Source: a virus
Reading direction: 5' to 3' (one strand)
Length of the DNA: 64,000 nucleotides
Virus record (IMG/VR): IMGVR_UViG_3300028920_000056
Coordinates: 1-64,000 of that record
Shown here: positions 10,568 to 62,259 of the stretch, piece after piece
Numbering within the stretch: the stretch's first letter is position 1
How the letters are laid out: each line of letters opens with the position of its first letter
Notes under the pieces: generated by a model
Database searches by the model: none
What the model was told of the DNA's origin: nothing
What the model saw: only the letters and a program-made list of their open reading frames with translations
Made by a program: the position numbers and the translations under genes

Positions 10568-11746
10568 ATGATTATTACAGAGGGCAAGATCAGAGACAGA
10601 ATAGCTATTATATATGGTCGTTTTCAGCCATTAACAAAAGCACATTATGAGATGATTGAAAAAGTAAGAAAAATGTATCATACAATTTTCATATTCCCAG
10701 TACAAGGTCCTAAAGCATATAAAACAATAGCAAAAACTGACAAAGGAAAGAAAAGTGAATTATCTAGAAAATTGAGTAGAAGTCCTTTCCCGGTAGGTTT
10801 AAGAATTGATTTAATTAATAAAGCTTTTCCAAAAATTCCAAGTGATCATATAATACATGCTACTTCAGGTGGGATAGAACATATATATAATACTATAAAA
10901 AGATTACATCCTTCTATTGAAACAAATAAATTAGATGTATATGCTGGTCCTGATGAATATGAATCTTACCAAGCTCAATTAAAATATATAAAAAATAAAG
11001 ATCTTGATATAAAAATAATTAAACATGATGTAGGTTCAAGAGAAGAAGTGTCAGGAACAAAATTGAGAGCTGCACTTACTAATCCCAATAAAGAAGAAGG
11101 TTATCAAATATACAAAAAATTAGCTGCTCCACCATTAGCAGATGAAGGCAGCTATAATAGGTTAAGAAAAGTTATTAAAAAAATTCAAAAAGTGAATATA
11201 GAAGAAAATATGCGATCATTTATGAATCAGATTAAAGAAGACACTTTAGAAGGTATAGTAAAAAACATTAGAGTATATTTAAGAAAATATTATCCTAATA
11301 AAAAATTCAATAAAATCAAATGGGCTGATCATGATTCTTTTATTGCATTTGATAATAAAATTCCATTTAAAAATCGCTCATTAGGAGACAAGTATTGGAT
11401 AAATGCATCAATAATAAAAGTTCCTGTTATTGATTACCATTATTTTGTTGATGTTGATAATATTAGAACAAATAGAAAACCTAAAGTAGTAGTCAGTGAT
11501 TGTGATTATATAACTGAATTATCAGGCACAAGATATTTATGTGCTAAAGGTAATAAAGCCGATATTGTTAGTTTAGATTCAGGTACTAAAGGGACAGTGT
11601 TTGATGTTAAAATAACTGATTTATTTTTTTCACCAAGTCAAGTAGAAGCTACACATAGTCTTTATTTAAGACTATATTATGGCAAACATAAATTTAGACA
11701 TTATAGCAAACAAGAAATTATAGAATTAATATTTAAAGGTAAATAA
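10568..11746 (+). CDS. cytidylyltransferase-like (HIGH superfamily) nucleotidyltransferase
   Basis: IIYGRFQPLTKAH (HxGH variant), SPFP, AGPD, VSGTKLR. Confidence 0.8.
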   Translation: MIITEGKIRDRIAIIYGRFQPLTKAHYEMIEKVRKMYHTIFIFPVQGPKAYKTIAKTDKGKKSELSRKLSRSPFPVGLRIDLINKAFPKIPSDHIIHATSGGIEHIYNTIKRLHPSIETNKLDVYAGPDEYESYQAQLKYIKNKDLDIKIIKHDVGSREEVSGTKLRAALTNPNKEEGYQIYKKLAAPPLADEGSYNRLRKVIKKIQKVNIEENMRSFMNQIKEDTLEGIVKNIRVYLRKYYPNKKFNKIKWADHDSFIAFDNKIPFKNRSLGDKYWINASIIKVPVIDYHYFVDVDNIRTNRKPKVVVSDCDYITELSGTRYLCAKGNKADIVSLDSGTKGTVFDVKITDLFFSPSQVEATHSLYLRLYYGKHKFRHYSKQEIIELIFKGK

Positions 11747-12060
11747 TGAATGCATTAAATTATTTAGCAGGTAAAGAAAAAATACGACATAGATTGATAA
11801 TAGCACCATTTAATAAAGAAGGTTTTGGTTTTACAATTGATGATTTAGATAATTATGACAAAGCTTTTTTGTATAAACTAAGAGAACTTTGTCAAGTGGC
11901 ACTAGATGATCATTTATCCTTTGATATAAATTTTATGAGTACAGGATATATTGAAGTAACTGCTTCACATTCACCTGACAAAGAATATGATCTAGATGTT
12001 GGGAATTATTATTTTTTCTTTAACAAACGGGGTAGATTTTTGTCATATGATTTTGAGTGA
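11746..12060 (+). CDS. hypothetical small protein
   Basis: 104 aa, translationally coupled; C-terminal FFFNKRGRFL hairpin resembles 13450, 16440 and 16721. Confidence 0.55.
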   Translation: MNALNYLAGKEKIRHRLIIAPFNKEGFGFTIDDLDNYDKAFLYKLRELCQVALDDHLSFDINFMSTGYIEVTASHSPDKEYDLDVGNYYFFFNKRGRFLSYDFE

Positions 12061-12362
12061 GTTTAATTATGTTTAAAGAATATATTGGAAAATGGTTTAG
12101 AGATGATAGATACGATACATGGTATTTTTTTATAGAACTACATAAAGATAAAGAAAAGTCCAATTATCAATATCAGAGAAATCAAATTCGTTTTTCTGGT
12201 TTTACAATGCGTCAACATAGACGAATAAGTTATGTGAAAAACGCATTTCATTATAATATTGAAAATGAAACAAAGCTTAAAAGACTTAAAAAAGTCTTTA
12301 TGGATGAAGAAAAAGATTGGCTTAGTAGAAAAGCTATTAGAAATATTTTTTATAGTGATTAG
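12057..12362 (+). CDS. small protein, C-terminal IxxIF-tag family (FxEYIGKW subfamily)
   Basis: MFKEYIGKW ... WLSRKAIRNIF; paralogue of the next two ORFs. Confidence 0.7.
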   Translation: MSLIMFKEYIGKWFRDDRYDTWYFFIELHKDKEKSNYQYQRNQIRFSGFTMRQHRRISYVKNAFHYNIENETKLKRLKKVFMDEEKDWLSRKAIRNIFYSD

Positions 12363-12385
12363 TATAATTTTGAGCAGGTTTAATT

Positions 12386-12664
12386 ATGTTTGAAGAGTAT
12401 ATTGGAAAGTGGATATATAATAATGATAGTTATATATTTGCACTTAAAATAACAATACTATCTTTCACAAAAGAAAATAATATGTTGGGTATATATGGAT
12501 TTAAATACTATGGATCAACAGGTATGGTATTCGCATCCAGAAATTATTTTTTAATCACAGAGCCTATTTTAAAATTGAAATGTAAATTTGTTAAAGAATC
12601 AGAAATGATAATATGGCTAAGCAGACTAGCAATTGAATCAATATTTTCAAAAGAGTCATATTAA
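12386..12664 (+). CDS. small protein, C-terminal IxxIF-tag family
   Basis: MFEEYIGKW ... WLSRLAIESIF. Confidence 0.7.
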   Translation: MFEEYIGKWIYNNDSYIFALKITILSFTKENNMLGIYGFKYYGSTGMVFASRNYFLITEPILKLKCKFVKESEMIIWLSRLAIESIFSKESY

Positions 12665-12927
12665 TGTTTGAAGAATATCTTGGTAAATGGTTTATTACCA
12701 AAGGAAAAATAAATTATTTCTTTATAAAATTGTGGATAGGAGGAAGTTCCAGAACACTTGTTGTAATGAGTGGTTTTAATAGATACAATGACAGACGTGT
12801 ATGTTTTTATAAATCATATGCAGTTGGAAATTTAGATTTTTTAAAATATAATATAAAAGAAGTAAACAATAAAGAAGCCAGTTGGCTTAGCAGAAAAACT
12901 ATTAGATCTATTTTTGGGAGTGATTAG
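12664..12927 (+). CDS. small protein, C-terminal IxxIF-tag family
   Basis: MFEEYLGKW ... WLSRKTIRSIF. Confidence 0.7.
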   Translation: MFEEYLGKWFITKGKINYFFIKLWIGGSSRTLVVMSGFNRYNDRRVCFYKSYAVGNLDFLKYNIKEVNNKEASWLSRKTIRSIFGSD

Positions 12928-12928
12928 T

Positions 12929-13156
12929 ATGAATATGAATGATTTTTTAGATGACATGATAGATGAAGACATAACGCCTAAACATACATCAGCAATACAA
13001 CCTTTTTTAAAAAGTGCAGTAGTTGAATTCTTAAAAAAGAATGCGACACCTACCGATGATGAAGTTCATAGTTGGGCAAAGGAAAACAAATTTGACATTC
13101 ACAAAGTTGAAGAAATTATTTATCAAATTGCAAGTACATGTCTAAGGAAGCACTAA
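12929..13156 (+). CDS. hypothetical protein
   Basis: ATG after GGGAGTG; PTDDEVHSWA...EEIIY. Confidence 0.55.
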   Translation: MNMNDFLDDMIDEDITPKHTSAIQPFLKSAVVEFLKKNATPTDDEVHSWAKENKFDIHKVEEIIYQIASTCLRKH

Positions 13157-13161
13157 TAATA

Positions 13162-13437
13162 ATGAATTCTAAAATTGGGAAATGGCTAACACCAGATAAA
13201 AGCTTATATTATTTTTTAGTGAAAATGAAAAAATGTACTAGAGTTAGTGTTTATGGTTATGAAATAATAGGGTTTGAATTATATTCAAACACTAGAAGTT
13301 TAAAGTTGCAAAGAAATATAAAAAATAATTTTATTTCTAAAGTAGCGTTAGAGAAAATGTGGACTGAAGATGATGCAAGAGTAATAAGTAGATTACAAAA
13401 GTTAGCTTTGAGAACTATATTTAAAGATAAAGAATAA
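13162..13437 (+). CDS. small protein, C-terminal IxxIF-tag family
   Basis: MNSKIGKW ... ISRLQKLALRTIFK. Confidence 0.65.
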   Translation: MNSKIGKWLTPDKSLYYFLVKMKKCTRVSVYGYEIIGFELYSNTRSLKLQRNIKNNFISKVALEKMWTEDDARVISRLQKLALRTIFKDKE

Positions 13438-13449
13438 GGAACTATTTGA

Positions 13450-13866
13450 ATGACAAGTTATACACTTAGAAACCCTTTAGAAAATAATTTTGATAAACTC
13501 ATTTTTAAAATGATATTTGATGGTGTAGCTCATGATGACATAGCAATAGAAAGTAGTCAAGCTTGTAGAGATTTTTTTGCAAATGCTTTAAATGCACTTG
13601 ATGACCCAGCTGTAAGATTTAACATGGAAGAATTAAAAAAGGGTTTAAAGTTCACTTTAAATTGGGATAATGTGCTTGCTTTTCAAATGCCAATAGAGTG
13701 GGTAAGTAAAAAAACAGGTAAAAAACATAAGACTGTTAACATAGAAGTTTCAGCACAAGCTGGTTTTATGGATAAATATGGAGATATAGGCGTAGTTGGT
13801 GACATAGGGTTTGAAATTAGTCCTAGTGGTAAGTTAGTTAAAATAAATTGGGATAGGTTAGATTAA
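13450..13866 (+). CDS. small protein with N-terminal IxxIF helix
   Basis: FDKLIFKMIFDG near the N-terminus. Confidence 0.55.
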   Translation: MTSYTLRNPLENNFDKLIFKMIFDGVAHDDIAIESSQACRDFFANALNALDDPAVRFNMEELKKGLKFTLNWDNVLAFQMPIEWVSKKTGKKHKTVNIEVSAQAGFMDKYGDIGVVGDIGFEISPSGKLVKINWDRLD

Positions 13867-14225
13867 TGAAGATCTTTATAATACCAGATATTGACATGAA
13901 AATGAATTATGCCCATGCTTTTAGTTCAATGGACAAATGTATTGAATTTGCACTTAGAGAAACTGCTAAACGCAACACATGGGATTGGAAACTTGAAAAA
14001 TTTAGCAATTTTGATGAAATAAAAAGATCTATGATTGATGAATTGAAGCGCCAACTTTCAAAATTTTATGAATTCGATATAGATTCCGGAGAAACTCCTA
14101 TAGCTCATAAAGGAGCAACAAAGTTTAAAAAAGCAAATATAAATAACATTATAACTCCAGAAATTTTAAGGGTATATTATAAATATTTTATAATGAATGT
14201 TTTTAATAAGGACGAAGATAGATGA
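13866..14225 (+). CDS. small protein, C-terminal IxxIF-tag family
   Basis: ends YKYFIMNVFNK. Confidence 0.55.
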   Translation: MKIFIIPDIDMKMNYAHAFSSMDKCIEFALRETAKRNTWDWKLEKFSNFDEIKRSMIDELKRQLSKFYEFDIDSGETPIAHKGATKFKKANINNIITPEILRVYYKYFIMNVFNKDEDR

Positions 14226-14503: not shown

Positions 14504-14916
14504 TGAAAAAATTAAATGAGTTTTTAAATATTCTTAGAGAATCTAAAGAAAAGGCAGGTTTTCATACCAATATAGAAGAAGACACAAAGAGTAACAACAA
14601 CTTCAGAAAAGTATTATTTACAGCAGAGCGTATTCAATTAGTTTTAATGTCACTGAAACCAAATGAAGACATTGGTCTAGAAAAACATAATGTTGACCAA
14701 TTTTTTAGAGTAGACTCAGGCAATGGTGAAGCTATCATAGATGGACACAAATATGAATTGAAAAATGGTGACGCAATAATAGTTCCCGCAAATTCAGAAC
14801 ATAATATAACAGCTGGAGATGAAGGTTTAAAGTTGTATACACTTTATGCTCCACCACATCACAAAGATGGCATAGTAAGAAAAACAAAGGAAGACGCTGA
14901 AAATAAACCAGAATGA
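14503..14916 (+). CDS. cupin domain protein
   Basis: QLVLMSLKPNEDIGLEKH..DQFFRVDSG..G..IIVPANSEHNI..LKLYTLYAPPHH. Confidence 0.9.
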   Translation: MKKLNEFLNILRESKEKAGFHTNIEEDTKSNNNFRKVLFTAERIQLVLMSLKPNEDIGLEKHNVDQFFRVDSGNGEAIIDGHKYELKNGDAIIVPANSEHNITAGDEGLKLYTLYAPPHHKDGIVRKTKEDAENKPE

Positions 14917-15386
14917 CTAAAGAGCAAATAAAGAAAAAGTTAAATTTAGATAACATTGGCAATTTCTATGAAGGCAGAGCTTGGATCCAGAAAAATGATA
15001 AAGAGGGTCATGTTGATATAAATGGCAAAGTGACAACGCCAATAATTTATGACTATACTGGCCCTTTCCAAGAAGGCAGAGCTCGAGTTAAGAAAAATGG
15101 TAAATGCGGTCATGTTGATCTAAATGGTAATGTAACAACACCAATAATTTATGATGATGTTGGCGATTTCAATGAAGGCAGAACTTGGGTTGAAAAAAAT
15201 GGTAAAGAGGGTCATGTTGATCTAAATGGTAAAGTGACAACGCCTATAGTTTATGATAGTGTTGGCAGTTTCAAAGAAGGCAGAGCAGAAACTCAATTAA
15301 ATAATTTTAGATTTTTTATAAACAAAAAAGGATATCCTACTGAACATAAAGATTTTTATAAATTGATAAAAGGTTTGTTTAAATGA
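14913..15386 (+). CDS. WG-repeat (KWG-like) protein, paralogue 1
   Basis: 35-aa repeats F.EGRAWV.KNGK.GHVD.NG.VTTPIIYD; ends FYKLIKGLFK. Confidence 0.85.
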   Translation: MTKEQIKKKLNLDNIGNFYEGRAWIQKNDKEGHVDINGKVTTPIIYDYTGPFQEGRARVKKNGKCGHVDLNGNVTTPIIYDDVGDFNEGRTWVEKNGKEGHVDLNGKVTTPIVYDSVGSFKEGRAETQLNNFRFFINKKGYPTEHKDFYKLIKGLFK

Positions 15387-15844
15387 CTAAAGAACAAATA
15401 AAGAAAAAACTAAAGCTAGATGAAATTGGCTCTTTCTCTGAAGGCAGAGCTCGAGTTAAGAAAAATGGTAAATATGGCCATATTGACAAAAATGGCAAAG
15501 TGACAACGCCAATAGTTTATGGGGGTGTTGGCAATTTCTATGAAGGCAGAGCTTGGGTTAAGAAAAATGGAAAAGAGGGTCATGTTGATCTAAATGGTAA
15601 TGTGACAACACCAATAATTTATGATGATGTTGGCCCTTTCAATGAAGGCAGAGCTTGGGTCCAGAAAAATGGTAAAGAGGGTCATGTTGATCTAAATGGT
15701 AAAGTGACAACGCCTATAGTTTATGATAGTGTTGGCTATTTCCAAGAAGGCAGAGCTAGAGCTGTAATCAAAAATTTTGGATTTTATATAAACAAAAAAG
15801 GATATCCATTTGATTTTTATAAATTGATAAAGAGTATATTCTAA
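15383..15844 (+). CDS. WG-repeat protein, paralogue 2
   Basis: same 105-bp repeat unit; ends FYKLIKSIF. Confidence 0.85.
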   Translation: MTKEQIKKKLKLDEIGSFSEGRARVKKNGKYGHIDKNGKVTTPIVYGGVGNFYEGRAWVKKNGKEGHVDLNGNVTTPIIYDDVGPFNEGRAWVQKNGKEGHVDLNGKVTTPIVYDSVGYFQEGRARAVIKNFGFYINKKGYPFDFYKLIKSIF

Positions 15845-16158: not shown

Positions 16159-16176
16159 AACTTTGGAAGTCTAATA

Positions 16177-18589: not shown

Positions 18590-18904
18590 ATGAAACCAGG
18601 CGATTTAATTAAATATCCAGATACAGTTAGTAAAGATGAAATTGCTATATATTTAGGAGAAAGAGTTGGTGTGCTTAAAATGATGCAAGTTATACCAATC
18701 GCAACAATATATTCTCCTCAATATTATAAAGACCGCACTGTTGAAGAAAAAGTTGAATATTACACCGACTATAAAAAAATACTAATTCAAAGCTTACTGC
18801 GACATAGAGGCGAAGCGGTAGTTTCCCCAAAAGAAGTTTGTTTCCATAAATTTTTTGAAACAAATTTACCAAGATTAGTCATAGAAAAAATATTTAATAT
18901 ATAA
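18590..18904 (+). CDS. small protein, C-terminal IxxIF-tag family
   Basis: MKPGDLIKY ... PRLVIEKIFNI. Confidence 0.6.
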   Translation: MKPGDLIKYPDTVSKDEIAIYLGERVGVLKMMQVIPIATIYSPQYYKDRTVEEKVEYYTDYKKILIQSLLRHRGEAVVSPKEVCFHKFFETNLPRLVIEKIFNI

Positions 18905-20973: not shown

Positions 20974-21876
20974 ATGAATGAAGCAATAGAATTAATTAAT
21001 AAATTAGGAATGAAAGTTAAACAATCTGAAATCTTAAATAAGAGAGAACTCAATGAATGGCTTGGTGAATCAGTGTTAGATCCCATAAGAGAAAAGTTAG
21101 ATCTAGATGTGTGGACTAAAGATGAAGAACATATGCAACCGAAACATAGAAAATTTATACTTGATAACCTTGAAAAATGGCTAAAGAAAATGGAAGTAGA
21201 CAAAGAGCCCACTAAGATCTCAGTAATTGGTTCTATTACAACATTTCAATATTCAGAAAATGCTGACATTGATGTTAATGTGGTAATTGATTTAACAGAT
21301 GAAGAGTTTAAAGAATTGAAAAAATTTCTTCCCAATGGTAAAAATTTACCTGGAACTAAACACCCTATAAATTATTATGTTGACAAAAAAGCAGAAGCCA
21401 ATTTAAAAGATAGACCTTCTATATATGATTTAAAAAATGATAAATGGGAAAAGAAACCAGAAACAAAAGATATTAAAATTCCATATGCTTATGTTATGGA
21501 AATAGCAAAATTCTTTATGGCTGGTGTTGACAATAGAATAAGTGAATACGAAAGGGATAAACATGAATTAGAATTGTATAAATCATATTTAGAAGATGCG
21601 TCTGTTAAGATTGATTCAGACGAACTACAAGCTGCTATTTCAATAAAAGAATCTGAGATATTAGCAGATTTAGATGCATTATATATTGCTCTTAAATTAG
21701 TAAAGGGTTTTCGTGGTAAAGCATATGAAAAAGATTATGAACCAGACTTTCTTATTTCTGTTGAAATTCAAGATGCTGATTTTTCTGTTAATAATTTAGT
21801 ATATAAAACTATCGAAAGATTTGGCTATTTAGATAAATTACAAAAATACAAAAAGATCAGAGAAAAATATAAATGA
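20974..21876 (+). CDS. DNA polymerase beta superfamily nucleotidyltransferase
   Basis: VIGSITTFQYSENADIDVNV (GS-x-DxD), HPINYY, FSVNNLVYK. Confidence 0.8.
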   Translation: MNEAIELINKLGMKVKQSEILNKRELNEWLGESVLDPIREKLDLDVWTKDEEHMQPKHRKFILDNLEKWLKKMEVDKEPTKISVIGSITTFQYSENADIDVNVVIDLTDEEFKELKKFLPNGKNLPGTKHPINYYVDKKAEANLKDRPSIYDLKNDKWEKKPETKDIKIPYAYVMEIAKFFMAGVDNRISEYERDKHELELYKSYLEDASVKIDSDELQAAISIKESEILADLDALYIALKLVKGFRGKAYEKDYEPDFLISVEIQDADFSVNNLVYKTIERFGYLDKLQKYKKIREKYK

Positions 21877-22346
21877 CTATAGAACAAATAAAGAAAAAAT
21901 TAAATTTAGATCAAATTTATAATTTCCAAGAAGGCAGAGTAGCAGTCGGGAAAAACAACAAATGGGGTCATGTTGATCTTGATGGCAATATAACAACGCC
22001 TATAATTTATGATGGTGTTGGTCATTTCCAAGAAGGTAGAGCTTGGGTTGAGAAAAATGATAAAGAAGGTCATGTTGATCTTGATGGCAAAATAACAACG
22101 CCTATAATTTATGACTATACTGGCGATTTCCAAGATGGCAAAGCTTGGGTCCAGAAAAATGGCAAATATGGTTTTGTTGATCTTGATGGCAAAATAACAA
22201 CGCCTATAATTTATGATGATGTTGATCATTTCTATAAGGGTAGAGCTTGGGTTAAAATCAAAAATTTTGAATTTAATATAAATAAAAATGGATATCCATT
22301 TGAACACAAAGATTTTTATAAATTGATAAAAGGTTTGTTTAAATGA
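21873..22346 (+). CDS. WG-repeat protein, paralogue 3
   Basis: same repeat; ends HKDFYKLIKGLFK. Confidence 0.85.
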   Translation: MTIEQIKKKLNLDQIYNFQEGRVAVGKNNKWGHVDLDGNITTPIIYDGVGHFQEGRAWVEKNDKEGHVDLDGKITTPIIYDYTGDFQDGKAWVQKNGKYGFVDLDGKITTPIIYDDVDHFYKGRAWVKIKNFEFNINKNGYPFEHKDFYKLIKGLFK

Positions 22347-22717
22347 CTAAAGAACAAATAAAGAAAAAATTAAATTTAGATAAAATTTATAATTTCCAAG
22401 AAGGCAGAGCAGCAGTTGAGAAAAACAACAAATGGGGTCATGTTGATCTTGATGGTAAAGTAACAACGCCAATAGTTTATGAATATGTTAGTTCTTTCAA
22501 AGAAGGTAGAGCTTGGGTCCAGAAAAATGGCAAATGGGGCCATGTTGATCTTGATGGTAAAGTGGTAGTGCTTATAATTTATGATGAGGTTGGCTATTTC
22601 TCTAGAGGAGGTAGAGCTTGGGTTGAAATTAATAGTATAGAATTTAATATAAATAAAAATGGCTATCCGTTAAAACATAAAGATTTTTATAAATTGATAA
22701 AAGGTTTGTTTAAATGA
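22343..22717 (+). CDS. WG-repeat protein, paralogue 4 (one fewer repeat)
   Basis: same repeat; ends HKDFYKLIKGLFK. Confidence 0.85.
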   Translation: MTKEQIKKKLNLDKIYNFQEGRAAVEKNNKWGHVDLDGKVTTPIVYEYVSSFKEGRAWVQKNGKWGHVDLDGKVVVLIIYDEVGYFSRGGRAWVEINSIEFNINKNGYPLKHKDFYKLIKGLFK

Positions 22718-22828
22718 AAGAATATATTTCATATAAAGGATTTTGAAAGAAGAATGTATCATATAGAAGAAAATAAAAATCTAATATCACGTTTATCAAA
22801 AGAATTAATACGGAACTTATTCAAATGA
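22714..22828 (+). pseudogene. deleted remnant of an IxxIF-family gene
   Basis: MKEYISYKGF* followed by ...ISRLSKELIRNLFK*. Confidence 0.55.
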
Positions 22829-23040
22829 AATATGTAGAATGGCAAACTGGAGATTACATTAAACCTGTGTGGGGAATTAAGATCAACAAGCAATATATAA
22901 TATTCAATGAAAATCTTGATAAGATTTTTAGATGGTCTATGCTATGGGATGGAAGTGAAAGTGGTTATTGGAAAAGAAAAGAAATAAGTGAAGATGAAAC
23001 CAGTAATGCAATGCATGTTTTAATTAAAGGAGTTTTTTAA
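22825..23040 (+). CDS. small protein, C-terminal IxxIF-tag family
   Basis: ends AMHVLIKGVF. Confidence 0.6.
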   Translation: MKYVEWQTGDYIKPVWGIKINKQYIIFNENLDKIFRWSMLWDGSESGYWKRKEISEDETSNAMHVLIKGVF

Positions 23041-29770: not shown

Positions 29771-30046
29771 ATGAAGAAAGTATATATAAAAAAGAAAGCT
29801 GATGATACATTTACAAAATACATTGCCATAAGAAAAAGCAAATATGTTCAGAAACAAGGTATTTATAAATTAGTACGAGTTGATAAAGCGCTGATTGGTA
29901 AATCATGGGATACTTCTAAATGGGCTAGAAATATAATAGATAGATTAGATATCTTAGATGATAAAACTACAGATTATATACCAACTTCAAATGAAGCACA
30001 TGATATAATAAAATCATTATTTGAGGGGTATAAAGATGAAACTTAA
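29771..30046 (+). CDS. small protein, C-terminal IxxIF-tag family
   Basis: ends EAHDIIKSLFE. Confidence 0.6.
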   Translation: MKKVYIKKKADDTFTKYIAIRKSKYVQKQGIYKLVRVDKALIGKSWDTSKWARNIIDRLDILDDKTTDYIPTSNEAHDIIKSLFEGYKDET

Positions 30047-30836: not shown

Positions 30837-31045
30837 ATGAATCGTTTAATGCTTAAGCATCCAAACAAAGACATGTATGCATTCTTTCTAAGCAAACTAT
30901 ATGATAAAGCTATCTTTATGTTTTATAACTCTAGAAAGAAAGCAATTTATTATGGTACTGAAGTTGTTAAAGGTGTTTATAAAGAACAAGTAAATGATTG
31001 CCTTCTGAGATGAAGCATGAGATTTTTAAGTGGTATTTTAAATGA
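30837..31045 (+). pseudogene. frameshifted paralogue of 31042..31266
   Basis: MNRLML...QVND then a 1-nt loss, then PSEMKHEIFKWYFK, nearly identical to the tail of the next gene. Confidence 0.65.
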
Positions 31046-31266
31046 ATATTCATAGAATGTATAAAAAACAAGAAGAAGAATCATATGCATTCATTTTAAA
31101 AAAAGATGAAAAAAATGCTTATCGCTGGTTGTTTTATGAGGGGGGAGGGATTTGCTTTTTGAAAAATATGCCAATTCATCCAATTACTAAAGTATATTCA
31201 GTAAAAGTGAATGATTTGCCGACTGAAATGAAACATGAAATTTTTAAGTGGTACTTTAACAAATAA
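31042..31266 (+). CDS. small protein, C-terminal IxxIF-tag family
   Basis: ends PTEMKHEIFKWYFNK. Confidence 0.65.
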   Translation: MNIHRMYKKQEEESYAFILKKDEKNAYRWLFYEGGGICFLKNMPIHPITKVYSVKVNDLPTEMKHEIFKWYFNK

Positions 31267-31481
31267 TTATTTTAGGGAGTTAATATGAAAAAAGAATACA
31301 GCGCACATGAAAAGAAGATATTGAATCGTGTAAAAGACAAGATAAAGTTATCAGGCTCGCAGTGGCGTGCTTTATTAGAAGACATGAAAAATGGTGAAAT
31401 TAAACGCGTTATATGTTTTAAATATAACATTCCACTAAAATATTATAAGTGGGTAAAAAGAATAGTTGGAGAAATGTAACT

Positions 31482-45914: not shown

Positions 45915-46884
45915 GTGGAAAAATATAATAAATGGTTCAAACAACCAGGATCAATAATTTATTATTATATGACAAAAGCAAAAAAAGATGGAGCTGGATT
46001 AGGAGTTACTGCGCATTATAAAAATAGAGAAGTAACATATTATGATGTCCATTTTAATTTTGATGTTGAAATGGTTTTTGAGAATTGTGAGATGGTCAGA
46101 GACAAAAATATAATTAATGCGTTAGAGTCATATTTCTCTCCAAGAAGAGCATGTATTTTGTGGGTATTTTCAGGCCAACATTATTATCACATTTGAGGAT
46201 ATAAATGCATTATTTAGTAGACATACATTATAACACCACACAACAAGAGTATAATATACTATTTGCTAAATGTCATTTCAAAACAATAACTTGGCGTAGC
46301 AAAGGTGAAACAAAAGGCACCGATGTATCAATTATTGATGAGACTTATTATAAATCTTCTGGCTATAAGTTTGATGGATATGTTGATGATGATGAAGCAT
46401 ATATAGAAGGTGGAGCCATACATTATGAGATAGACGAAGCCAAATTAGATTTTTTTGAAAGAATTTTTTGGCATGCAAAAATATCTAATAAATTTTCTAT
46501 AGCAGGCTGAAAATGAATTTACACATTACAATAGATTATGATTATGGAGACGGACAAGCTCACGCAATATTTTGGTTAGATACAAGTACGTATATAAATT
46601 TTCAATTTGGAGCAGAGGCAAAAATACAAGATATAGATAGTTGGTATGAAGGCGAGGGCTCACTTTCAAAAGTAAAAATAGATTATAGAACATTCCATAT
46701 AAGTAAATATTATATTGATTCTGAATATGAAGAAGAAACATTTGAATATGAATTAGAAAACTGGAGAAATGAACCAGAGCATTGCACTACCTTTGACAAT
46801 GTGCAATTTACTCCACAAATTATAAAAGCTCTTGTAAAGAATAGGAGTGCTATATTTTCATCAATATTTCTTTCTATAGCATAA
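45915..46884 (+). other. three small IxxIF-family-like genes (45915-46196, 46205-46510, 46513-46884)
   Basis: tails RACILWVF, LDFFERIF, SAIFSSIF. Confidence 0.55.
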
Positions 46885-47985: not shown

Positions 47986-48103
47986 TGCGAAAACATGAAA
48001 TTCTTCCTTTAATTGCATAGATAATTATGAAAACAAAAGTCGCTCGTTGAGGACTTTAATTATTTTATAAGCGATGTCGCATGAGTCGCAAAGGAGAAAC
48101 ATT

Positions 48104-55236: not shown

Positions 55237-55251
55237 CAAAGATAAATATAT

Positions 55252-55452
55252 ATGACAAGTGTGACTTACTATTATATAATAAAAACCTATAAAGCTGGTG
55301 ATTGGAAAGCAACATTTAGAATTACTAATAAAGTACTAGATGAAACTTGGATATGTGAAAAATTAAAAAACAAAAATGACATTTTTAAATTTATATTTAA
55401 TGATTATATAATAGACAATAAAATAGAGATTAAAGTAGAAATTAAAATATGA
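55252..55452 (+). CDS. small protein, IxxIF-tag family
   Basis: KNDIFKFIFND; ATG 4 nt after AAGATAAAT. Confidence 0.55.
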   Translation: MTSVTYYYIIKTYKAGDWKATFRITNKVLDETWICEKLKNKNDIFKFIFNDYIIDNKIEIKVEIKI

Positions 55453-55485
55453 AATATTATTATAAGTTGATAAAGGTAATATTTA

Positions 55486-56058
55486 ATGACTAGAGAGCAA
55501 ATAAAGAAAAAATTAAATTTAAGTAGTATTGGCGATTTTCTTGAAGGCAGAGCTTGGGTCCAGAAAAATGGTAAATTTGGTCATGTTGACAAAAATGGCA
55601 ATATTACAACGCCAATAGTTTATGATGACGTTGGCAATTTCAAAGAAGGCAGAACTTGGGTTGAGAAAAATGGTAAATGCGGTCATGTTGATCTAAATAG
55701 TAAAGTAACAACGCCTATAATTTATGATAACGTTGGCAATTTCAAAGAAGGCAGAGCTCGAGTTAAGAAAAATGGTAAATGGGGTCATGTTGATAAAAAT
55801 GGCAATATAACAACGCCTATAATCTATGATGATGTTGGCTCTTTCCAAGAAGGCAAAGCTTGGGTCCAGAAAAACAATAAATATGGCCATGTTGATCTAA
55901 ATGGCAAAGTGACAACGCCAATAATTTATGACGATATTGGTTATTTCCAAGAAGGCAAAGGATGGGCGGAAATTAACAAAGTATATATTGATATAAATAA
56001 AAATGGTATACCAATTAAACATAAAGATTTTTATAATTTAATAAAAGGATTATTCTAA
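55486..56058 (+). CDS. WG-repeat protein, paralogue 5 (one extra repeat)
   Basis: MTREQIKKKLNL...same repeat...HKDFYNLIKGLF. Confidence 0.85.
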   Translation: MTREQIKKKLNLSSIGDFLEGRAWVQKNGKFGHVDKNGNITTPIVYDDVGNFKEGRTWVEKNGKCGHVDLNSKVTTPIIYDNVGNFKEGRARVKKNGKWGHVDKNGNITTPIIYDDVGSFQEGKAWVQKNNKYGHVDLNGKVTTPIIYDDIGYFQEGKGWAEINKVYIDINKNGIPIKHKDFYNLIKGLF

Positions 56059-57346
56059 TGAAATATTTAGTTTGCATAAATCATGAAGGTATACAATGTA
56101 AAATGCAACTTGGGCATGAGCCTGAGAGGACAGAACTAGAAATTAAGAGTGCACAAAACAGAAATTTAATAAAAGAGATTTTCTTTAGAAAAGAAGATCC
56201 AAGAACAGATATATCTTTCATAAATGATCAAAAAGAGATAGCGGCTGAAATAATGAAGAAATATGATGTTAGCACTGGCTATTATGGATATCAAATACGC
56301 AAGACTACAATAGGTAAACATATTGAAGTAGTAGTTGACATGCCTGAAAAAGAGTTTAATAAATCACAAGGTAGTTTAGAAGGGGCAATCAATATTTTAC
56401 ATCATACTACAAAGTTGATGTCTCCTAAAGCAAAAACAAAAGATGCAGCAAAGATTGTATTGAAGTGGATCAACAGATTAGAGTCTGAGAAGGAGATTGA
56501 TTAAATGCTATGGGATGAATTCAAAGAAGGTGATATTGTTGAATATAAAGGATTACATGTTTTTAAAACATTTTTCTGGATAAGAAGAAAATTTAAGTCT
56601 GCTGAAAGGGCACTAGTTGTTGAGCTCATTAAGTGGAATAAAAACTCTAGATTTCATATTCATAAAATAAAATCTTACTGGGGAAAAAATTGGTTTAATG
56701 AAGAATGGAGACACAAACAATATACGACGTCAAGTAGAAAAGAATTATTTGATGAGATATTTAAGTCATGAAAAAAGTAATAATTTATGGCATAATAAAA
56801 AAACCGTTTCAGATATTAATAGCAAAAGCGTTTTATTCTTTTGATATTGGAGAAACTTCTGTTTCTGGTGAGAGATATGAATTTGTAGAAGATGATGTTA
56901 TAATTGATGTTAACTGGGGATTTTATGGAGATTATGAAAATGGGGAGTTTGAAGAAATTCCTGATAATGTTAATGAAGCTGACACAATTGAAGAAGCTTA
57001 TAGAGAAATAATAATGAGAATTATTTAATGAAATATTTGGAGGCTAATTATGGTTAAACCACGAATTCTTGGAAAGTGGTATATAAACAATAAAAAAGAT
57101 TATATGAATTTTGTTTTAGCTGTTGATATTCGGGGTGGATATATTACTATTGGAATTAAGCCTCCATATACAGAAATTAATATGTATCATCTTGTTGATA
57201 AAAATGGTAGTGGCTACCTAACCAAACTTATTGATGCAGACGAATCAGAAATAAGTAGATTAAATAGTTTAATAATTAAATATATTTTTGAAGATTTAGT
57301 CGAGTTTAACTACTTTAGAGACTATTTGGAGAATTATGGAGGCTAA
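56058..57346 (+). other. four small IxxIF-family genes (56058, 56505, 56768, 57050)
   Basis: NLIKEIFF (internal), KELFDEIFK, YREIIMRII, SLIIKYIFE. Confidence 0.6.
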
Positions 57347-57348
57347 TT

Positions 57349-58159: not shown

Positions 58160-58307
58160 ATGAAACTAACAGAATTAATAAAAACAAATAGATTGAAAGC
58201 AGGAATGCTATTCTATCATACATTTCAAAGCGTGGAAGGTATATATTATTTAGTCATAAAAGTTAATAGAAAAGCTTAAATTAATTGAAAATATATTTGA
58301 CAAGTGA
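58160..58307 (+). pseudogene. deleted/frameshifted IxxIF-family remnant
   Basis: MKLTE..LKAGMLFY...* then KLIENIFDK* in another frame. Confidence 0.5.
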
Positions 58308-60076
58308 GATTTTTAGAAGAAATGATTGGAATTGAAGAGAAAAAATTATTTAGAAAACTACTCCAAAGATATGGTTCATACATAAGAGATGTAGAAACTG
58401 TTGACTATATTCCAGGTATTAAGCCACTTTTTATTTTTCATTGGCTTGCAGAACACAAATATGTTATGTGCAGAAAGTGGCATATTGATTTAAATCAATC
58501 TCAATCAGGATTTAATATTTATGTGCCAAAATTTTATGACTTGTTGGAGAAAAAATGGTTCGGTGGAATGTATTTTACATCAGCCGCAGTTGTTAATAAT
58601 AAAACGACATTTAAAAAAATATTAAATTATTTAGCTGATGGAAATGTTGAAGAGGCAAACAAATTGTTTTATAAACCCAGACGAATAATAAGGAATATAT
58701 TTAATGAAAGATAATGAAATAGTAGTAGGCGATTTATTATATTATCTCGATCGAGATAATATGAATTTTAATTATCTTTATTGTCGAGCTATTAATAAAA
58801 ATAAATTATACTTTATACAATTTAAATTCTTAGTGAATATAAAAAAGTTAATTATTAGAGAAAGATATATCCTGACTAGAGTTGAGTGGAACGACAAACA
58901 TCTTATTTTTAAATATTTCATAAAAGATGATGAAGCTAAGCACCAACTAGTTGAGCGTATTTTTAAAGTGGAAATAGAAGATATAAGGTATTTTGATAAA
59001 TGAAATATTTTGTAGTTGTACCAAATTTAAAGCCTCAAGTTATAATCTTTTTTGAATTTATAAAAGAATTGTCAGAAGCTCATAAATATCGTATAGGAAG
59101 ACGGTGGTATACTAAAAAGATAGTAAAATATAAAGCACGAGAAAATGGTGTCTATTTTGAAATACATATCTACTCACTTATTAAACGAGAGTCTGGCTAT
59201 AAATTTATAAGACCACCAATAAATGGAGAAATATTTGATTCATTTTCAAAAGCAGCTAGATATCTTATTGTTAGGTTGTTTAAATAATGAAAAATGGAAT
59301 TTGGTATGAAATAGATCAAAAAAACTTTTTTAGTATCGCACACCAGTATTAATACATTTTTCTAATGAAAGATAAAGTGTTTGGATTTGATTGGCCTTCT
59401 AATAAATTTAGAACATATTCTAGAGCAGCATTAGAACCTGTATCAAAAGGGTTCAATATGGACTAAAATAGGTACTGACCTTATAAGTAGAGAATTAATA
59501 AAATTTATATTTGGATGTAGGTAAACATGACATTTAAAGAACTAAAATCTGGAATGATTCTATATGACTCTATTGGAGAAAAAATAATGTTTATTATTAA
59601 TGTTAAGAATGAGAATACAACTGTTGAATATGTGAGTGCACTTATTTTTTCTCCAATTATAACTACTTTAACATCTTATTTTATTGACATAATAACATGG
59701 CATGATCGTTATAGCAAAAGCTGCAAGCTTGCCACAAGTAAACAACTAAGAAAAGAAATAATGAAAATGTATGGGGCAACAACAAGTGATTAAGTTTAAA
59801 GAAGTAAAAAGAGGGATGTTTTTATGGCACATACTTGATGATGAATATACTGCATATTTTTATGTCCAAGAAAAATCAACCGAAGGAGTTACTGGATTAT
59901 GGGTTATATATAATACTTCAGATCGTATATTTGTTTATATACCAAATAGATTCTTCTCGAAGCGAACTTTTAGTATAAAATTAGATAAATGGAGTATTTT
60001 GTGGCGCATGAAATTGCAAGAAAGAAAACACTTGTTCAGAATTATTTTTGATGCAAAAGAGTTTCATAAAGAATAA
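58304..60076 (+). other. cluster of IxxIF-family genes (58304, 58704, 59000, 59527, 59771) plus a broken copy at 59287-59524
   Basis: tails RRIIRNIF, HQLVERIF, RYLIVRLF, RELIKFIF (remnant), KEIMKMY, KHLFRIIF. Confidence 0.65.
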
Positions 60077-60370: not shown

Positions 60371-60946
60371 ATGCACCCGCATAACATTCTCCTATTAGAT
60401 GTAGACAATACAATAGTTATTGCAAAAGACAATTATATTTACAAAATCATCAATGGAAAAGAAATAGCATTGACGCCTGCCGAATTTGCCCAAGAAGATA
60501 TACACAATAATAGATATGATTTCAGAGATTTTGAAGACCCAGATAGAATAAAAAGCGCAATTATGCATGGGCAACCAATAGTCTATGTACTAGATTTTAT
60601 GAGAGATAAACTAGACAATGGTTGGGAAGTTGGAATCTTAACAGCTAGACCAAGAGGAAAGCTTATTAAGAAAATATTGCGAACATGGCTTTTTTGTAGA
60701 GATGAAGAAGGAAAATGGACACAAATTGGCGATAAACTTAAAAGAGTGTTTGCAATTGGTGAAGTCGGTGGTACTTGTTCTTCTAATGTAGAAAAGAAAA
60801 TAGCAGTATTAAAAAGAATGTGTAAAGAATATGAACATGTAATGTTCATAGATGATGATCAAAGTAATATAGAAGCAGCAAGACAATTAAAATTAGATAA
60901 TCTTATTGCTATCAACACAAACGATTTAAAATTTATTGTTAGGTAA
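60371..60946 (+). CDS. HAD-superfamily phosphatase
   Basis: LLDVDNT (I), ILTAR (II), K (III), FIDDDQSN (IV). Confidence 0.85.
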   Translation: MHPHNILLLDVDNTIVIAKDNYIYKIINGKEIALTPAEFAQEDIHNNRYDFRDFEDPDRIKSAIMHGQPIVYVLDFMRDKLDNGWEVGILTARPRGKLIKKILRTWLFCRDEEGKWTQIGDKLKRVFAIGEVGGTCSSNVEKKIAVLKRMCKEYEHVMFIDDDQSNIEAARQLKLDNLIAINTNDLKFIVR

Positions 60947-60998
60947 ATAAAATACTATCCTTAAAATTAACTACTCATAATGCGAAAGATAATCATAT

Positions 60999-61280
60999 AT
61001 GAGATTTAACGAAGTAAATAGTTCCGAAATGTTATTTTGCACATATACTAATGTAGATATTTTTTCTTACATTATTAATAAATATAAAGGTAGTTGTGAT
61101 TTATTAATAATAAAATTTTGGGATAACATGTCTAAAGTATATGTAGTTAGACTCAGCAGTATTTCTAAAGTAGTTTTTGATAGTAAAAAATATATTTATA
61201 TTAGAACACACAAAATCAATAAAAAAGTTTTATTTCAAAAAATATTTAGTAAAAAATGGAAGTATGTAGATGAGCGATAA
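60999..61280 (+). CDS. small protein, C-terminal IxxIF-tag family
   Basis: KKVLFQKIFSK. Confidence 0.6.
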   Translation: MRFNEVNSSEMLFCTYTNVDIFSYIINKYKGSCDLLIIKFWDNMSKVYVVRLSSISKVVFDSKKYIYIRTHKINKKVLFQKIFSKKWKYVDER

Positions 61281-61782
61281 ATTTGAATTATACGATGATT
61301 TAAATAATTTTGAGATAGATTTATTTAACGAAGTTGATCAAGAAAAAATTAATATTGAAGGCGCACCATTTACTATTTGGAAATTTGATTTGGCAGCAAC
61401 AAAAGAGACTGATGATTCTATACCAGATGATGGCTTAGATCTAAATCTACTATATGGCGAAGCACTTCCTGAAAATTTTGTATATGAAAAAGCGCCACAA
61501 AAATTAAAAGGTAGTTATTTAGAACCTACATGGACTCAAGATTTAATGGCTTTTGGTATTACTGAACCTGAAGAGATAAATATAAAATTTAATAAACAAC
61601 AAGTAATTGATTTACTTGGTAGAACATTTCTTATTGGCGACATTATTAAAACATTTCATGAAAAACATTATATAATAGAAGATACATATGTTAGTGAAGA
61701 AACTGGTATTTGGGAATATATCCATATTAATGTAATAGCAAGAAAAGTAGATGTTTCACAAGTAAATTTGCCCGAGGCTTAA
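61270..61782 (+). CDS. head completion/neck protein (gp14-like)
   Basis: QEKINIEG, LYGEA, LMAFGI, IGDII; located between the gp13-like and gp15-like genes. Confidence 0.75.
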   Translation: MSDKFELYDDLNNFEIDLFNEVDQEKINIEGAPFTIWKFDLAATKETDDSIPDDGLDLNLLYGEALPENFVYEKAPQKLKGSYLEPTWTQDLMAFGITEPEEINIKFNKQQVIDLLGRTFLIGDIIKTFHEKHYIIEDTYVSEETGIWEYIHINVIARKVDVSQVNLPEA

Positions 61783-61783
61783 T

Positions 61784-62259
61784 TTGAAAGATTATATTTA
61801 TCTATATAATGACAAATTAAGAGTACGAACATTTCTTAGATGCACAAAGCATTCTAGAGGTAGATTACAAGTTTTAGATATTTTTATTGATGAAGCTGGT
61901 GTTTTTGAATTTGGAGAAATATTTGTTCCCAATCCAAATATGTTATATGACAAATACAGTTTAGTTCACAGGATATTTAAAGAATAATGAAAGATTTAAA
62001 AATGGCTTAATTTGAAAGAGGTTAGAGTTAAAAAATGAAATTCTTTTATCTTGTAGATGAAACTAAAAAAACAGATATACATTACTTATTTCAAATTGAA
62101 TTGAGTGGTAAAATTGATCCTGATGGTCGCCATGAAGTAAAAATTATAAAAATTATACATTGTGAAGGATTTTACAAATATGAGCCTGGCGAAATTATTC
62201 ATATTAAAAATGCTTTGAATGAGAAAGAATTATTAAGAGAAATATTTAAAAATGGCTGA
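61784..62259 (+). other. two small IxxIF-family genes (61784-61987, 62035-62259)
   Basis: tails YSLVHRIFKE and KELLREIFKN. Confidence 0.6.

What the first reader, a model, noticed from the sequence alone, without database searches (positions are those of the whole stretch)
10568..62259. Window-wide repertoire of ~30 unrelated-looking small proteins sharing one C-terminal amphipathic IxxIF tag (candidate adaptor/docking system)
Seen: the small ORFs wedged between core genes nearly all end with the same helix, (basic)-x-[LIF]-[IVFL]-x-x-[IL]-F, usually within a few residues of the stop. Examples: RKAIRNIF (12057), RLAIESIF (12386), RKTIRSIF (12664), KLALRTIF (13162), KLIKGLF (WG-repeat genes), RLVIEKIF (18590), HVLIKGVF (22825), HDIIKSLF (29771), HEIFKWYF (31042), YLFTELF (31784), KLIKFLF (32044), KIIRHIF (35240), DFFERIF (46205), DIFKFIF (55252), ELFDEIF (56505), LIIKYIF (57050), RIIRNIF (58304), QLVERIF (58704), YLIVRLF (59000), HLFRIIF (59771), VLFQKIF (60999), SLVHRIF (61784), ELLREIF (62035), and EIIELIF on the 392-aa nucleotidyltransferase. 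The bodies differ: WG repeats, KxGD-starting SH3/KOW-like beta domains, and an enzyme. Codons vary, so conservation is at the protein level. Inference: a portable tag that docks many variable cargo or target-binding domains onto one hub (capsid packaging, a phage or host protease/chaperone, or RNA polymerase). The logic parallels poxvirus ankyrin-PRANC/F-box adaptors. I know of no described phage system like this.
Basis: partly seen in the sequence, partly recalled or inferred. Interest (0 to 1): 0.88.

Follow-up and report, generated by a model that had tools for sequence, protein, structure and literature searches.

The report
Shared terminal helix on phage proteins
About a third of the small accessory proteins of this uncultured T4-like phage, built on at least two different folds, end in the same short helix that finishes in Ile/Leu-Phe; the helix behaves like a portable module, but what it does is not known.

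Summary
In the window's 89.6-kb record, 31 of 120 small ORFs carry [LIVFMA][LIVFM]xx[ILVY]F in their last 25 residues. Per-protein shuffles give 3.6±1.8. The signal appears only in the coding frame. It needs Phe at the last position and a two-residue spacer.

It recurs in related phage contigs (G001: 17 of 91 against 2.6). It also recurs in a 158-kb phage record that shares only the WG-repeat genes (16 of 142 against 4.5). It is absent from T4 and from two other phage records.

The bearers are mostly fast-evolving singletons. Two families fold differently in AlphaFold2: propeller-like WG repeats and a small beta-sheet domain. In both, the motif is a confident terminal helix joined directly to the body, not a floppy tail.

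The helix is portable and selected as a peptide, but no hub was found, and a purely structural capping role remains a serious rival. My best reading (0.4) is a docking helix read by one unidentified partner.

Notes from this scan report similar shared helix tags, with other motifs, in other large phages. I did not check those notes.

The parts
10568..11746 (+). 392-aa NMNAT-like nucleotidyltransferase with a ~165-aa C-terminal extension ending QEIIELIF-KGK (motif nt 11711-11734)
   Evidence: Pfam CTP_transf_like and phrog cytidyltransferase. 12 of the 19 more distant homologues are 221-235 aa and lack the extension; others carry different C-terminal domains. Motif position.
12057..13437 (+). 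Four tail-bearing paralogues of one small family (12057-12362, 12386-12664, 12664-12927, 13138-13437), ending RKAIRNIF, RLAIESIF, RKTIRSIF and KLALRTIF. The tail-less ORF 12914-13156 lies in the same span.
   Evidence: Clustered by blastp and phmmer and aligned in A3/A4. AlphaFold2 pLDDT 85.9: four strands plus a C-terminal helix at residues 79-95.
14913..15844 (+). Two WG-repeat genes (14913-15386, 15383-15844) ending YKLIKGLF-K and YKLIKSIF
   Evidence: Pfam WG_beta_rep; paralogy; tails.
18590..18904 (+). 104-aa singleton ending RLVIEKIF-NI
   Evidence: The only hit in the word-based protein search was itself.
21873..22717 (+). Two WG-repeat genes (21873-22346, 22343-22717) ending YKLIKGLF-K
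   Evidence: AlphaFold2 of 22343: pLDDT 95.3, hairpin repeats plus a helix at residues 112-122. Foldseek hits to beta-propeller blades, E about 3e-3.
22825..23040 (+). 71-aa ORF ending HVLIKGVF at the stop
29771..30046 (+). 91-aa ORF with HDIIKSLF, 7 residues before the end
31042..32292 (+). Three tail-bearing ORFs (31042-31266 HEIFKWYF, 31784-32047 EYLFTELF, 32044-32292 YKLIKFLF). The last tail is nearly identical to the WG tail although the body differs.
35240..35521 (+). 93-aa ORF with DKIIRHIF, between terminase and portal
45915..46884 (+). Three ORFs: 45915-46196 (degenerate INALESYF; its body weakly matches the 12057-family profile), 46205-46510 (LDFFERIF) and 46513-46884 (SAIFSSIF, borderline)
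   Evidence: hhalign probability 54% for 45915.
55252..57346 (+). Cluster of 55252-55452 (NDIFKFIF), WG gene 55486-56058 (YNLIKGLF), 56505-56771 (KELFDEIF) and 57050-57346 (SLIIKYIF, a 12057-family member). The span also holds 56058-56504, which has the motif near its N-terminus.
58304..59287 (+). Three adjacent ORFs ending RRIIRNIF, HQLVERIF and RYLIVRLF
59771..60076 (+). 101-aa ORF with KHLFRIIF
60999..61280 (+). 93-aa ORF with KVLFQKIF
61784..62259 (+). Two ORFs (61784-61987 YSLVHRIF, 62035-62259 KELLREIF)
13866..14225 (+). Borderline member, 119 aa, KYFIMNVF
   Evidence: Matches the regex; low amphipathicity.
40626..41006 (+). Prohead-core-position protein whose C-terminal helix (SKFVNKIF) only resembles the motif. 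2 of its 14 aligned family members (this one and L012) have Phe at that position.
   Evidence: Alignment A5.

Best explanation
The LIxxIF element is an autonomous, portable terminal alpha-helix. It is 11-17 residues long, with consensus [KRH]-x-[LI]-[IF]-[KRE]-x-[IL]-F and usually 0-7 polar residues after the Phe. Recombination and descent have placed it on many fast-evolving accessory proteins of at least two folds, in a group of low-GC phages.

I think its most likely job is to present one hydrophobic face (positions -5, -4, -1 and the invariant Phe) to a single common partner, from the host or the phage, so that the bearers are handled as one class.

Shown here: the peptide-level enrichment, its Phe and spacing specificity, its recurrence in other phage records, the different bodies, and the helical state.

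Inferred: that a trans-acting partner, rather than packing within the same protein, explains the constraint. The partner is unknown. The nearest formal match is the clamp-binding epitope of T4 gp43 and gp55, which shares the core h-x-x-h-F/Y close to the C-terminus.
For: - Enrichment: 31 of 120 small ORFs against 3.6 +/- 1.8. In frame only: 24 against 0 and 1.
- Position 0 accepts only Phe: 30 against 3.2 expected, while L, I, V, M, Y and W are not enriched. Only a spacer of 2 is enriched. Relatives G001-G005 show the same pattern, 34 against 5.6. Generic core or membrane helices would be expected to interchange large hydrophobic residues.
- The same motif sits on different predicted folds: WG hairpin repeats (propeller-like) and a four-strand sheet plus helix. 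It also ends an extension of a nucleotidyltransferase that 12 of its 19 more distant homologues lack.
- The 12057-family profile finds other bearers only through the tail.
- Tail-bearing ORFs are the unconserved gene pool: 58 of 75 fall in no phmmer cluster.
- Within families the four hydrophobic tail columns are among the least variable (entropy 0.69 against 1.84 in A4, and 0.31 against 0.96 in A8). The 9 true relatives found among 1.84 billion representatives all keep the tail, as do 14 of the 15 fetched WG homologues; the 15th ends in a variant with Ile for Phe.
- The motif is also enriched at N-termini (9 against 3.2 in this record, 11 against 4.4 in G011) and depleted mid-protein (4 against 10.3).
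- It is present in G011, a phage record that shares no core gene found here, only the WG family (16 of 142 against 4.5). It is absent from T4, G008 and G006.
- The T4 clamp-binding tails read SLDFLFG and SLDFLYEAND in the T4 record. The review PMC2988020 (passages read) says the gp43, gp55 and gp33 motifs are interchangeable.
Against: - In both AlphaFold2 models the helix is continuous with the body and confident (pLDDT about 90-95), with no flexible linker.
- The conserved positions are the hydrophobic face, and the polar positions vary. That is also what packing within the same protein predicts.
- No candidate reader was found in the 89.6-kb record, which is about 47% complete.
- No gene family other than the WG proteins, plus weak matches to an HNH-like protein and two others, is shared between this record and G011.
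- The N-terminal enrichment is weak in four of the five close relatives.
- Most singleton bodies look beta-rich to the eye and could still be one fold class. Only two families were folded.
- A note from this scan on a similar claim elsewhere says later checks priced the 'one reader' reading at 10 in 100 (not checked by me).
Confidence: 0.4

Rival explanations
1. Structural capping helix with no shared partner. An ancestral small beta-rich protein with a C-terminal helix multiplied in the variable regions and diverged beyond recognition. Its helix-coding end was occasionally recombined onto other bodies (WG repeats, the nucleotidyltransferase extension). The helix simply covers an exposed hydrophobic sheet surface of its own protein.
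For: - AlphaFold2 places the helix confidently against the body in both families.
- In the 12057 family the other invariant residues (G7, K8, G44, near-invariant W9) are few and could form one core with L85, I93 and F94.
- Only the hydrophobic face is conserved.
- Many bearers share an N-terminal KxGD- or GKW-type beta start and a length of 66-136 aa.
- Weak body-to-body scores among bearers are about twice as frequent as against non-bearers.
- The tail of 32044 is nearly identical to the WG tail over 11 residues, with a shared 14-nt run, which suggests the tail-coding end can move between genes.
Against: - Strict Phe at position 0 and strict spacing hold across two different folds and across unalignable bodies. 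That is unusual for a purely structural residue.
- The motif also occurs at N-termini.
- T4 and two other phage records, one of them at 27% GC, show no such preference.
- Profile comparison does not join the bodies.
Confidence: 0.3
2. Peripheral membrane anchor. The terminal amphipathic helix lies in the plane of the inner membrane, as the C-terminal helix of MinD or FtsA does (recalled from memory, not checked in a call), and concentrates the accessory proteins at the membrane.
For: Tails are amphipathic (mean hydrophobic moment 0.49 against 0.28 +/- 0.15 for body windows) and on average basic (+1.25 against +0.37). The motif sits at either terminus.
Against: - 8 of 32 tails have net charge 0 or below in the 11 residues ending at Phe, and Glu is common at positions -3 and -6.
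- Membrane helices would be expected to tolerate L, I, W or M where only Phe is found.
- The models pack the helix on the body.
Confidence: 0.1
3. Mutual association. The helices bind each other or the bearers' bodies, building homo- or hetero-oligomers of accessory proteins. For example, partial WG propellers might close into rings.
For: - The WG bodies are incomplete propeller-like repeats of 1 to 4 units. Such fragments often oligomerise (general knowledge).
- The WG family is the only clear family shared by the two phage lineages that use this motif.
Against: No direct evidence. The conserved part of the helix is short.
Confidence: 0.08
4. Capsid targeting. The helix loads the bearers into the prohead core, as the capsid targeting sequence (CTS) of the T4 internal proteins does.
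For: - In T4, diverse internal proteins share only a conserved CTS (PMC3012670, passages read).
- All 31 bearers lie in the 1-64 kb part that holds the virion and packaging genes, and none of the 22 small ORFs lies in the replication/repair part at 64-89.6 kb.
- The core-position protein 40626 has a similar C-terminal helix.
Against: - The scaffold C-terminus and the core protein N-terminus share a different motif, Y/F-x-x-L-x-E-[ML]-L-[DEK]-L-A-G-[VI], and nothing else in the set carries it.
- Only 2 of the 14 aligned 40626-family members have Phe at the motif position.
- No conserved cleavage site precedes the tails.
- About 30 different cargo species would be unprecedented.
Confidence: 0.05

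Closest known systems
[quoted passage not shown]
   Same: It is a short hydrophobic motif near the C-terminus that ends in Phe or Tyr, with the core h-x-x-h-F. T4 gp43 ends SLDFLFG and gp55 ends SLDFLYEAND. The motif is portable between proteins and read by one hub (PMC2988020, passages read). This phage is T4-like.
   Different: The T4 epitope is acidic and sits on a flexible linker. Here the motif is a mostly basic helix continuous with the fold, it has an extra hydrophobic residue at -5 and none at -2, and it is on about 30 proteins instead of 3. The clamp, polymerase, gp55 and gp33 of this phage are not in the records I could reach, so their tails could not be compared.
Capsid targeting sequence of T4 internal proteins IPI-IPIII
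   Same: Highly diverse proteins share only a short conserved targeting peptide (PMC3012670).
   Different: The CTS is N-terminal and cleaved (recalled). Here the motif is mainly C-terminal with no conserved cleavage site, and the head-core proteins of this clade share another motif.
Poxvirus ankyrin-PRANC / F-box adaptors
   Same: Variable binding domains carry one C-terminal docking element.
   Different: PRANC is a folded domain of about 50 residues with a known reader (the SCF complex). Here there is an 11-17-residue helix and no known reader.
Shared terminal helix tags noted by this scan in other large uncultured phages (AI notes)
   Different: Their motifs differ (for example ..IKDIIE-stop, or SAVDRLADLV-like), and several sit at a fixed distance from the stop. 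Here the distance varies from 0 to 19 residues, and the same motif is used by two phage lineages that share no core genes in the available sequence. I did not check those notes.
Promoter-stem-loop cassettes (PeSLs) that shuffle ORFans in the hyperplastic regions of T4-like phages (PMC2839356 and PMC4122927; abstracts seen in the listing only)
   Same: A conserved short element flanks fast-turning-over ORFans between the core gene blocks of T4-like genomes.
   Different: PeSLs are intergenic DNA elements. This motif lies inside the ORFs, only in frame, with varying codons.

Membership tests
T4-type / PIP-like clamp-binding motif | Core h-x-x-h-[FY] within a few residues of a terminus | tested here: met
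   Positions -4, -1 and 0 are [IFLV], [IL] and F in the 31 aligned tails. The T4 gp43 and gp55 tails were read from the T4 record.
T4-type / PIP-like clamp-binding motif | The phage's own polymerase, gp55 and gp33 carry the same motif | not testable with these tools
   No gp43, gp45 or gp55 was found in the own record (about 47% complete) or in G001-G005 and G011.
T4-type / PIP-like clamp-binding motif | Motif on a flexible, acidic, unstructured tail | tested here: not met
   The helix is continuous with the fold, at pLDDT about 90-95. Mean net charge is +1.25.
T4-type / PIP-like clamp-binding motif | Binding to the sliding clamp | not tested
   No clamp sequence from this clade was available.
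T4 capsid targeting sequence | Shared with the proteins of the prohead core | tested here: not met
   The scaffold and the core protein share a different terminal motif. Only 2 of the 14 aligned 40626-family members have Phe at the motif position.
T4 capsid targeting sequence | Bearers present in virions and processed by the prohead protease | not testable with these tools
   This needs proteomics. No conserved L/I-x-E site lies upstream of the tails.
MinD/FtsA-type membrane targeting helix | Amphipathic terminal helix with a cationic polar face | tested here: inconclusive
   Mean hydrophobic moment is 0.49 against 0.28, but 8 of 32 tails have net charge 0 or below.
Pfam WG_beta_rep (PF14903), for the five WG genes only | Match to the family model | tested here: met
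   5 of the 32 scanned ORFs match; best E-value 4.6e-44.
   The two folded families differ. The A4 profile finds only its own five members plus 45915 at 54%. For the unfolded singletons the question stays open.
vWA-MoxR-coupled peptide systems (a lead from scan notes) | MoxR ATPase and vWA protein encoded nearby | tested here: not met
   There is no PF07726 or PF13519 match over cut-off in G000, G001, G002, G003 or G011. All of these records are incomplete.

The most novel reading that the evidence does not exclude
The LIxxIF helix is a public address code read by a single host or phage protein. The sliding clamp is the best formal fit, and an AAA+ protease or a chaperone is the alternative. 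Under this reading, different phages of the same host hang a third of their fast-evolving accessory proteins on one hub, and new accessory genes join the system simply by acquiring an 11-residue helix.
Probability: 0.15. Interest if true: 0.9.

Novelty: new variant of a known kind. Interest (0 to 1): 0.62.

Why it matters
Most small genes of large phages have no known function. A single peptide shared by a third of them would give one experimental handle on the whole class: use the tag as bait, or mutate the Phe. It could also show how phages wire newly acquired genes into an existing process. If the helix proves to be only a structural cap, the result is still useful. It would define a large, fast-diverging gene family, plus a recombination-borne module, that current databases do not name.

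Tried and rejected
**Artefacts ruled out**
- Composition or low-GC artefact. Per-protein shuffles keep composition, and a 27%-GC phage record (G008) shows 5 of 102 against 6.4 expected.
- DNA- or RNA-level signal (ribosome-binding site, promoter, terminator). Hits are in frame only, codons vary, and the distance to the stop varies.

**Homology and annotation searches**
- Pfam and PHROGs on the 32 bearers named only the WG repeats and the nucleotidyltransferase. The other hits were weak and matched 1-3 members each.
- The word-based search with ORF 18590 found only itself.
- The ESM Atlas gave SH3/KOW/Tudor-like leads for 12057 (TM 0.41-0.59) and a poor model for 18590 (pLDDT 0.58). Both are leads only.
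- Fold searches with the 12057-family model found nothing clear. Foldseek against PDB had a best E of 0.089. VIA-align had a best Z of 4.7 (a Lon specificity factor), inside the noise range the tool states. BFVD had a best E of 0.021.
- phmmer of the nucleotidyltransferase extension against all ORFs in hand gave nothing significant.

**Search for a reader**
- No gp45, gp43 or gp55 is present in the own record or in G001-G011.
- Attempts to reach the missing half of the genome did not find it. These used gp41, an RNA-ligase-like protein, the nucleotidyltransferase, and the capsid protein against metagenome contigs.
- No MoxR or vWA gene was found.
- Complex prediction with capsid protein + WG protein + 12057-family protein as partner returned 'no answer' (score 0.13, mark 0.32). 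This is no evidence either way.

**Literature**
- Searches with the terms turned up no description of this motif.
- I read passages of PMC3012670 and PMC2988020. All other papers I saw only as listings or abstracts. Supplementary files were not opened.

Full report
**Setting**

The window is bases 1-64000 of an 89,628-bp virus record that CheckV rates about 47% complete. GC content is about 29%, and nearly all genes lie on the + strand.

It is a distant T4-like myovirus. The supporting genes are:
- a gp23-like major capsid protein at 42662-44284;
- a large terminase subunit, and a portal that carries an HNH insert;
- a scaffold, prohead protease and core protein conserved in relatives;
- homologues of gp47, gp46, UvsX and gp41 at 68-81 kb.

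- *Enrichment.* With the regex [LIVFMA][LIVFM]xx[ILVY]F in the last 25 residues, 31 of 120 ORFs of 200 aa or less are hit. 500 per-protein shuffles give 3.6 +/- 1.8, maximum 10. Large ORFs give 1 of 37 against 0.8.
- *Reading frame.* The last 25 codons contain 24 in-frame hits, against 0 and 1 in the other two frames. Codon choice at the motif varies.
- *Specificity.* Phe at the last position gives 30 observed against 3.2 expected. Leu, Ile, Val, Met, Tyr and Trp at that position are not enriched (0 to 1.7 times expectation). A two-residue spacer gives 30 against 3.2, while spacers of 1, 3 and 4 give 5, 5 and 0 against about 3. Position -1 prefers Ile, then Leu.
- *Consensus.* The aligned tails give [KRH]-x-[LI]-[IF]-[KRE]-x-[IL]-F-[KNS].
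- *Distance to the stop.* In 23 of the 32 window ORFs, 0-6 residues follow the Phe. In the other nine, 7-19 follow.
- *Position within proteins.* The motif is also over-represented in the first 20 residues (9 against 3.2 +/- 1.8) and depleted in the middle of proteins (4 against 10.3).
- *Position within the genome.* All 31 hits lie in the 1-64 kb part (31 of 98 small ORFs). None of the 22 small ORFs in the replication and RNA-repair part at 64-89.6 kb has it (Fisher p = 0.0009).

**Is it general, or special to this phage?**

Related contigs, with capsid proteins 67-78% identical, repeat the enrichment:

| Record | Hits / small ORFs | Expected |
|---|---|---|
| G001 | 17 / 91 | 2.6 |
| G003 | 7 / 44 | 1.1 |
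| G005 | 4 / 36 | 0.8 |
| G002 | 3 / 53 | 1.0 |
| G004 | 3 / 35 | 1.0 |

These relatives show the same Phe and spacer specificity (34 against 5.6).

Three controls show nothing:
- T4 bases 1-50000: 1 of 58 against 2.1;
- G008, a 115-kb record at 27% GC: 5 of 102 against 6.4;
- G006, at 40% GC: 5 of 148 against 4.0.

A 158-kb record, G011, was reached through a pattern for the WG-gene start. By my searches it shares with this phage only the WG family (up to 78% identity) and three weak matches. It has no capsid or other core gene in common. Even so, it shows 16 of 142 against 4.5, of which 5 are WG genes. It also shows 11 against 4.4 at N-termini. Both records are incomplete, so shared genes may lie in the unseen parts.

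**What are the bearers?**

They are the unconserved gene pool. Of 75 tail-bearing small ORFs pooled from all records in hand at that point, 58 fall in no phmmer cluster. Tail-less small ORFs mostly have orthologues in the relatives.

Pfam names only two kinds of body:

- *Five WG_beta_rep genes.* Of the 15 homologues fetched from related contigs, 14 keep a [LV]I[KR]xxF tail, although the number of repeats varies. The 15th, a 263-aa protein, ends in a variant with Ile for Phe.
- *One CTP_transf_like nucleotidyltransferase (NMNAT-like).* Its core is about 229 aa. Of its 19 more distant homologues, 12 are 221-235 aa and stop at that core. The others carry unrelated C-terminal additions; two of these match the free-standing ORF 14222-14503 of this window. 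Only this protein and an 89%-identical relative carry the roughly 165-aa extension that ends in the motif.

A third family is the 12057 group: 12057, 12386, 12664, 13138 and 57050. A full HMMER scan of 1.84 billion representative proteins found 11 hits. The five best correspond in length to the five query members. The four others I fetched that are true relatives all keep the tail. Two further hits are long repetitive proteins: the one I fetched is spurious, and the other I judged spurious from its length and repeated partial matches.

**Structure**

*12057 family.* AlphaFold2 on a 10-row alignment gives pLDDT 85.9 and pTM 0.78. The model has four main strands, a short helix, and a C-terminal helix at residues 79-95 with pLDDT about 94. 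It has no clear match in PDB or BFVD. The weak matches are small beta-barrels of the Sm, SH3, Tudor and KOW kind, at scores the tools themselves rate as noise.

*WG protein 22343.* AlphaFold2 on a 15-row alignment gives pLDDT 95.3. The model has an N-terminal helix, hairpin repeats, and a C-terminal helix at residues 112-122 with pLDDT about 90. Foldseek aligns it to beta-propeller blades (BamB, designed propellers) at E about 3e-3.

So the motif closes two different folds. In both it is an ordered helix with no linker.

Other structural evidence:
- A profile of the 12057 family, run with hhalign against the 89.6-kb record's ORFs of 55-160 aa, finds its own five members. It also finds 45915 at 54% probability. 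Otherwise it aligns only 10-14 tail columns at negligible probability.
- Weak body-to-body scores among bearers are about twice as frequent as against non-bearers. That is compatible with some hidden kinship but does not show it.
- Tails are amphipathic (hydrophobic moment 0.49 against 0.28 +/- 0.15 for body windows) and mildly basic (+1.25 against +0.37). However, 8 of 32 have a net charge of 0 or below.

**Interpretation**

Two facts pull in opposite directions.

- *For a structural cap.* The helix is part of the predicted fold, and only its hydrophobic face is conserved.
- *For a constraint from outside the individual fold.* The same four positions, with a strict Phe and strict spacing, are kept on two unrelated folds and on dozens of unalignable bodies. 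They occur at either terminus, in two phage lineages, and not in the control phages.

I therefore take the helix to be an autonomous portable module. I think this is likely, at roughly 0.7. Within that, I commit with 0.4 to docking onto one common partner through the hydrophobic face.

The closest known logic is in T4 itself.
- *Clamp-binding C-termini.* The clamp-binding ends of gp43, gp55 and gp33 are interchangeable (PMC2988020, passages read). They read SLDFLFG and SLDFLYEAND in the T4 record, sharing the h-x-x-h-F/Y core. But they are acidic and sit on flexible linkers.
- *Capsid targeting sequence.* It is the only conserved part of the very diverse internal proteins (PMC3012670, passages read).

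Capsid targeting is weakened here. The scaffold C-terminus and the N-terminus of the core-position protein share a different motif, Y/F-x-x-L-x-E-[ML]-L-[DEK]-L-A-G-[VI], and nothing else carries it.

The clamp idea could not be tested, because the replication module of this clade is in none of the records I could reach.

**What else bears on it**

Notes from this scan describe the same kind of shared terminal helix, with other motifs, in several other large uncultured phages. One note says later checks priced the 'one reader' reading at 10 in 100. I used these notes only as leads and as a brake on my odds. I tested their MoxR/vWA lead here and found no such genes.

My literature searches found no description of this motif. 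The known shuffling cassettes of T4-like variable regions are intergenic DNA elements, not peptides (abstracts).

**Verdict**

- The feature is a new variant of a known kind, a portable terminal peptide module.
- Its function and its reader are unknown.

Noticed in passing
window 41654-42631 (C-terminus) and 40626-41006 (N-terminus): The scaffold protein ends, and the small prohead-core-position protein begins, with the same motif Y/F-x-x-L-x-E-[ML]-L-[DEK]-L-A-G-[VI]. It is conserved in all relatives examined and found in no other protein in hand. It is probably a head-assembly docking or protease site.
   Followed up: partly
window 36211-39345: The 1044-aa portal protein carries an inserted HNH endonuclease segment at about residues 404-586, possibly an intein or a domain insertion. 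A free-standing HNH-like ORF lies just upstream at 35874-36218.
   Followed up: no
window 52168-54200: A tandem array of eight small genes with overlapping stop and start codons ends in a different shared tail, ..ITKLxL[KR]GL[VI]. Its alternating pattern looks strand-like rather than helical. Other scan notes cover it.
   Followed up: no
window 8501, 48588, 55240, 60987; record 71209: The word AAGATAA(A/T) recurs 10-13 nt upstream of ATG starts that lack a Shine-Dalgarno sequence. Twice it follows directly after a terminator-like hairpin with a T-run. It may be a promoter giving near-leaderless mRNAs. Two of the genes it precedes are tail bearers (55252, 60999).
   Followed up: partly
window 14222-14503: This free-standing 93-aa ORF (ending ..ISRYHKFIKGTA) appears in other phages as a C-terminal fusion to the NMNAT-like nucleotidyltransferase (P0015, P0017).
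   Followed up: partly
window 32245-32268 compared with 15357-15380: The tail of ORF 32044 (KDKYKLIKFLF) is nearly identical to the WG tail (KDFYKLIKGLF), and the two share a 14-nt run although their bodies differ. This hints that tail-coding ends move between genes.
   Followed up: no
window 48074-48547: A 157-aa ORF looks like a small heat-shock protein, judging by eye from a WDAF N-terminal motif and a typical C-terminus. Its regex match at the N-terminus is probably the family's own motif and not the tag.
   Followed up: no
G011 (158-kb record), 1463-15034: This record, which shares only the WG genes with the window's phage, encodes a 4523-aa protein. It also has five WG paralogues with the same tail.
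   Followed up: no
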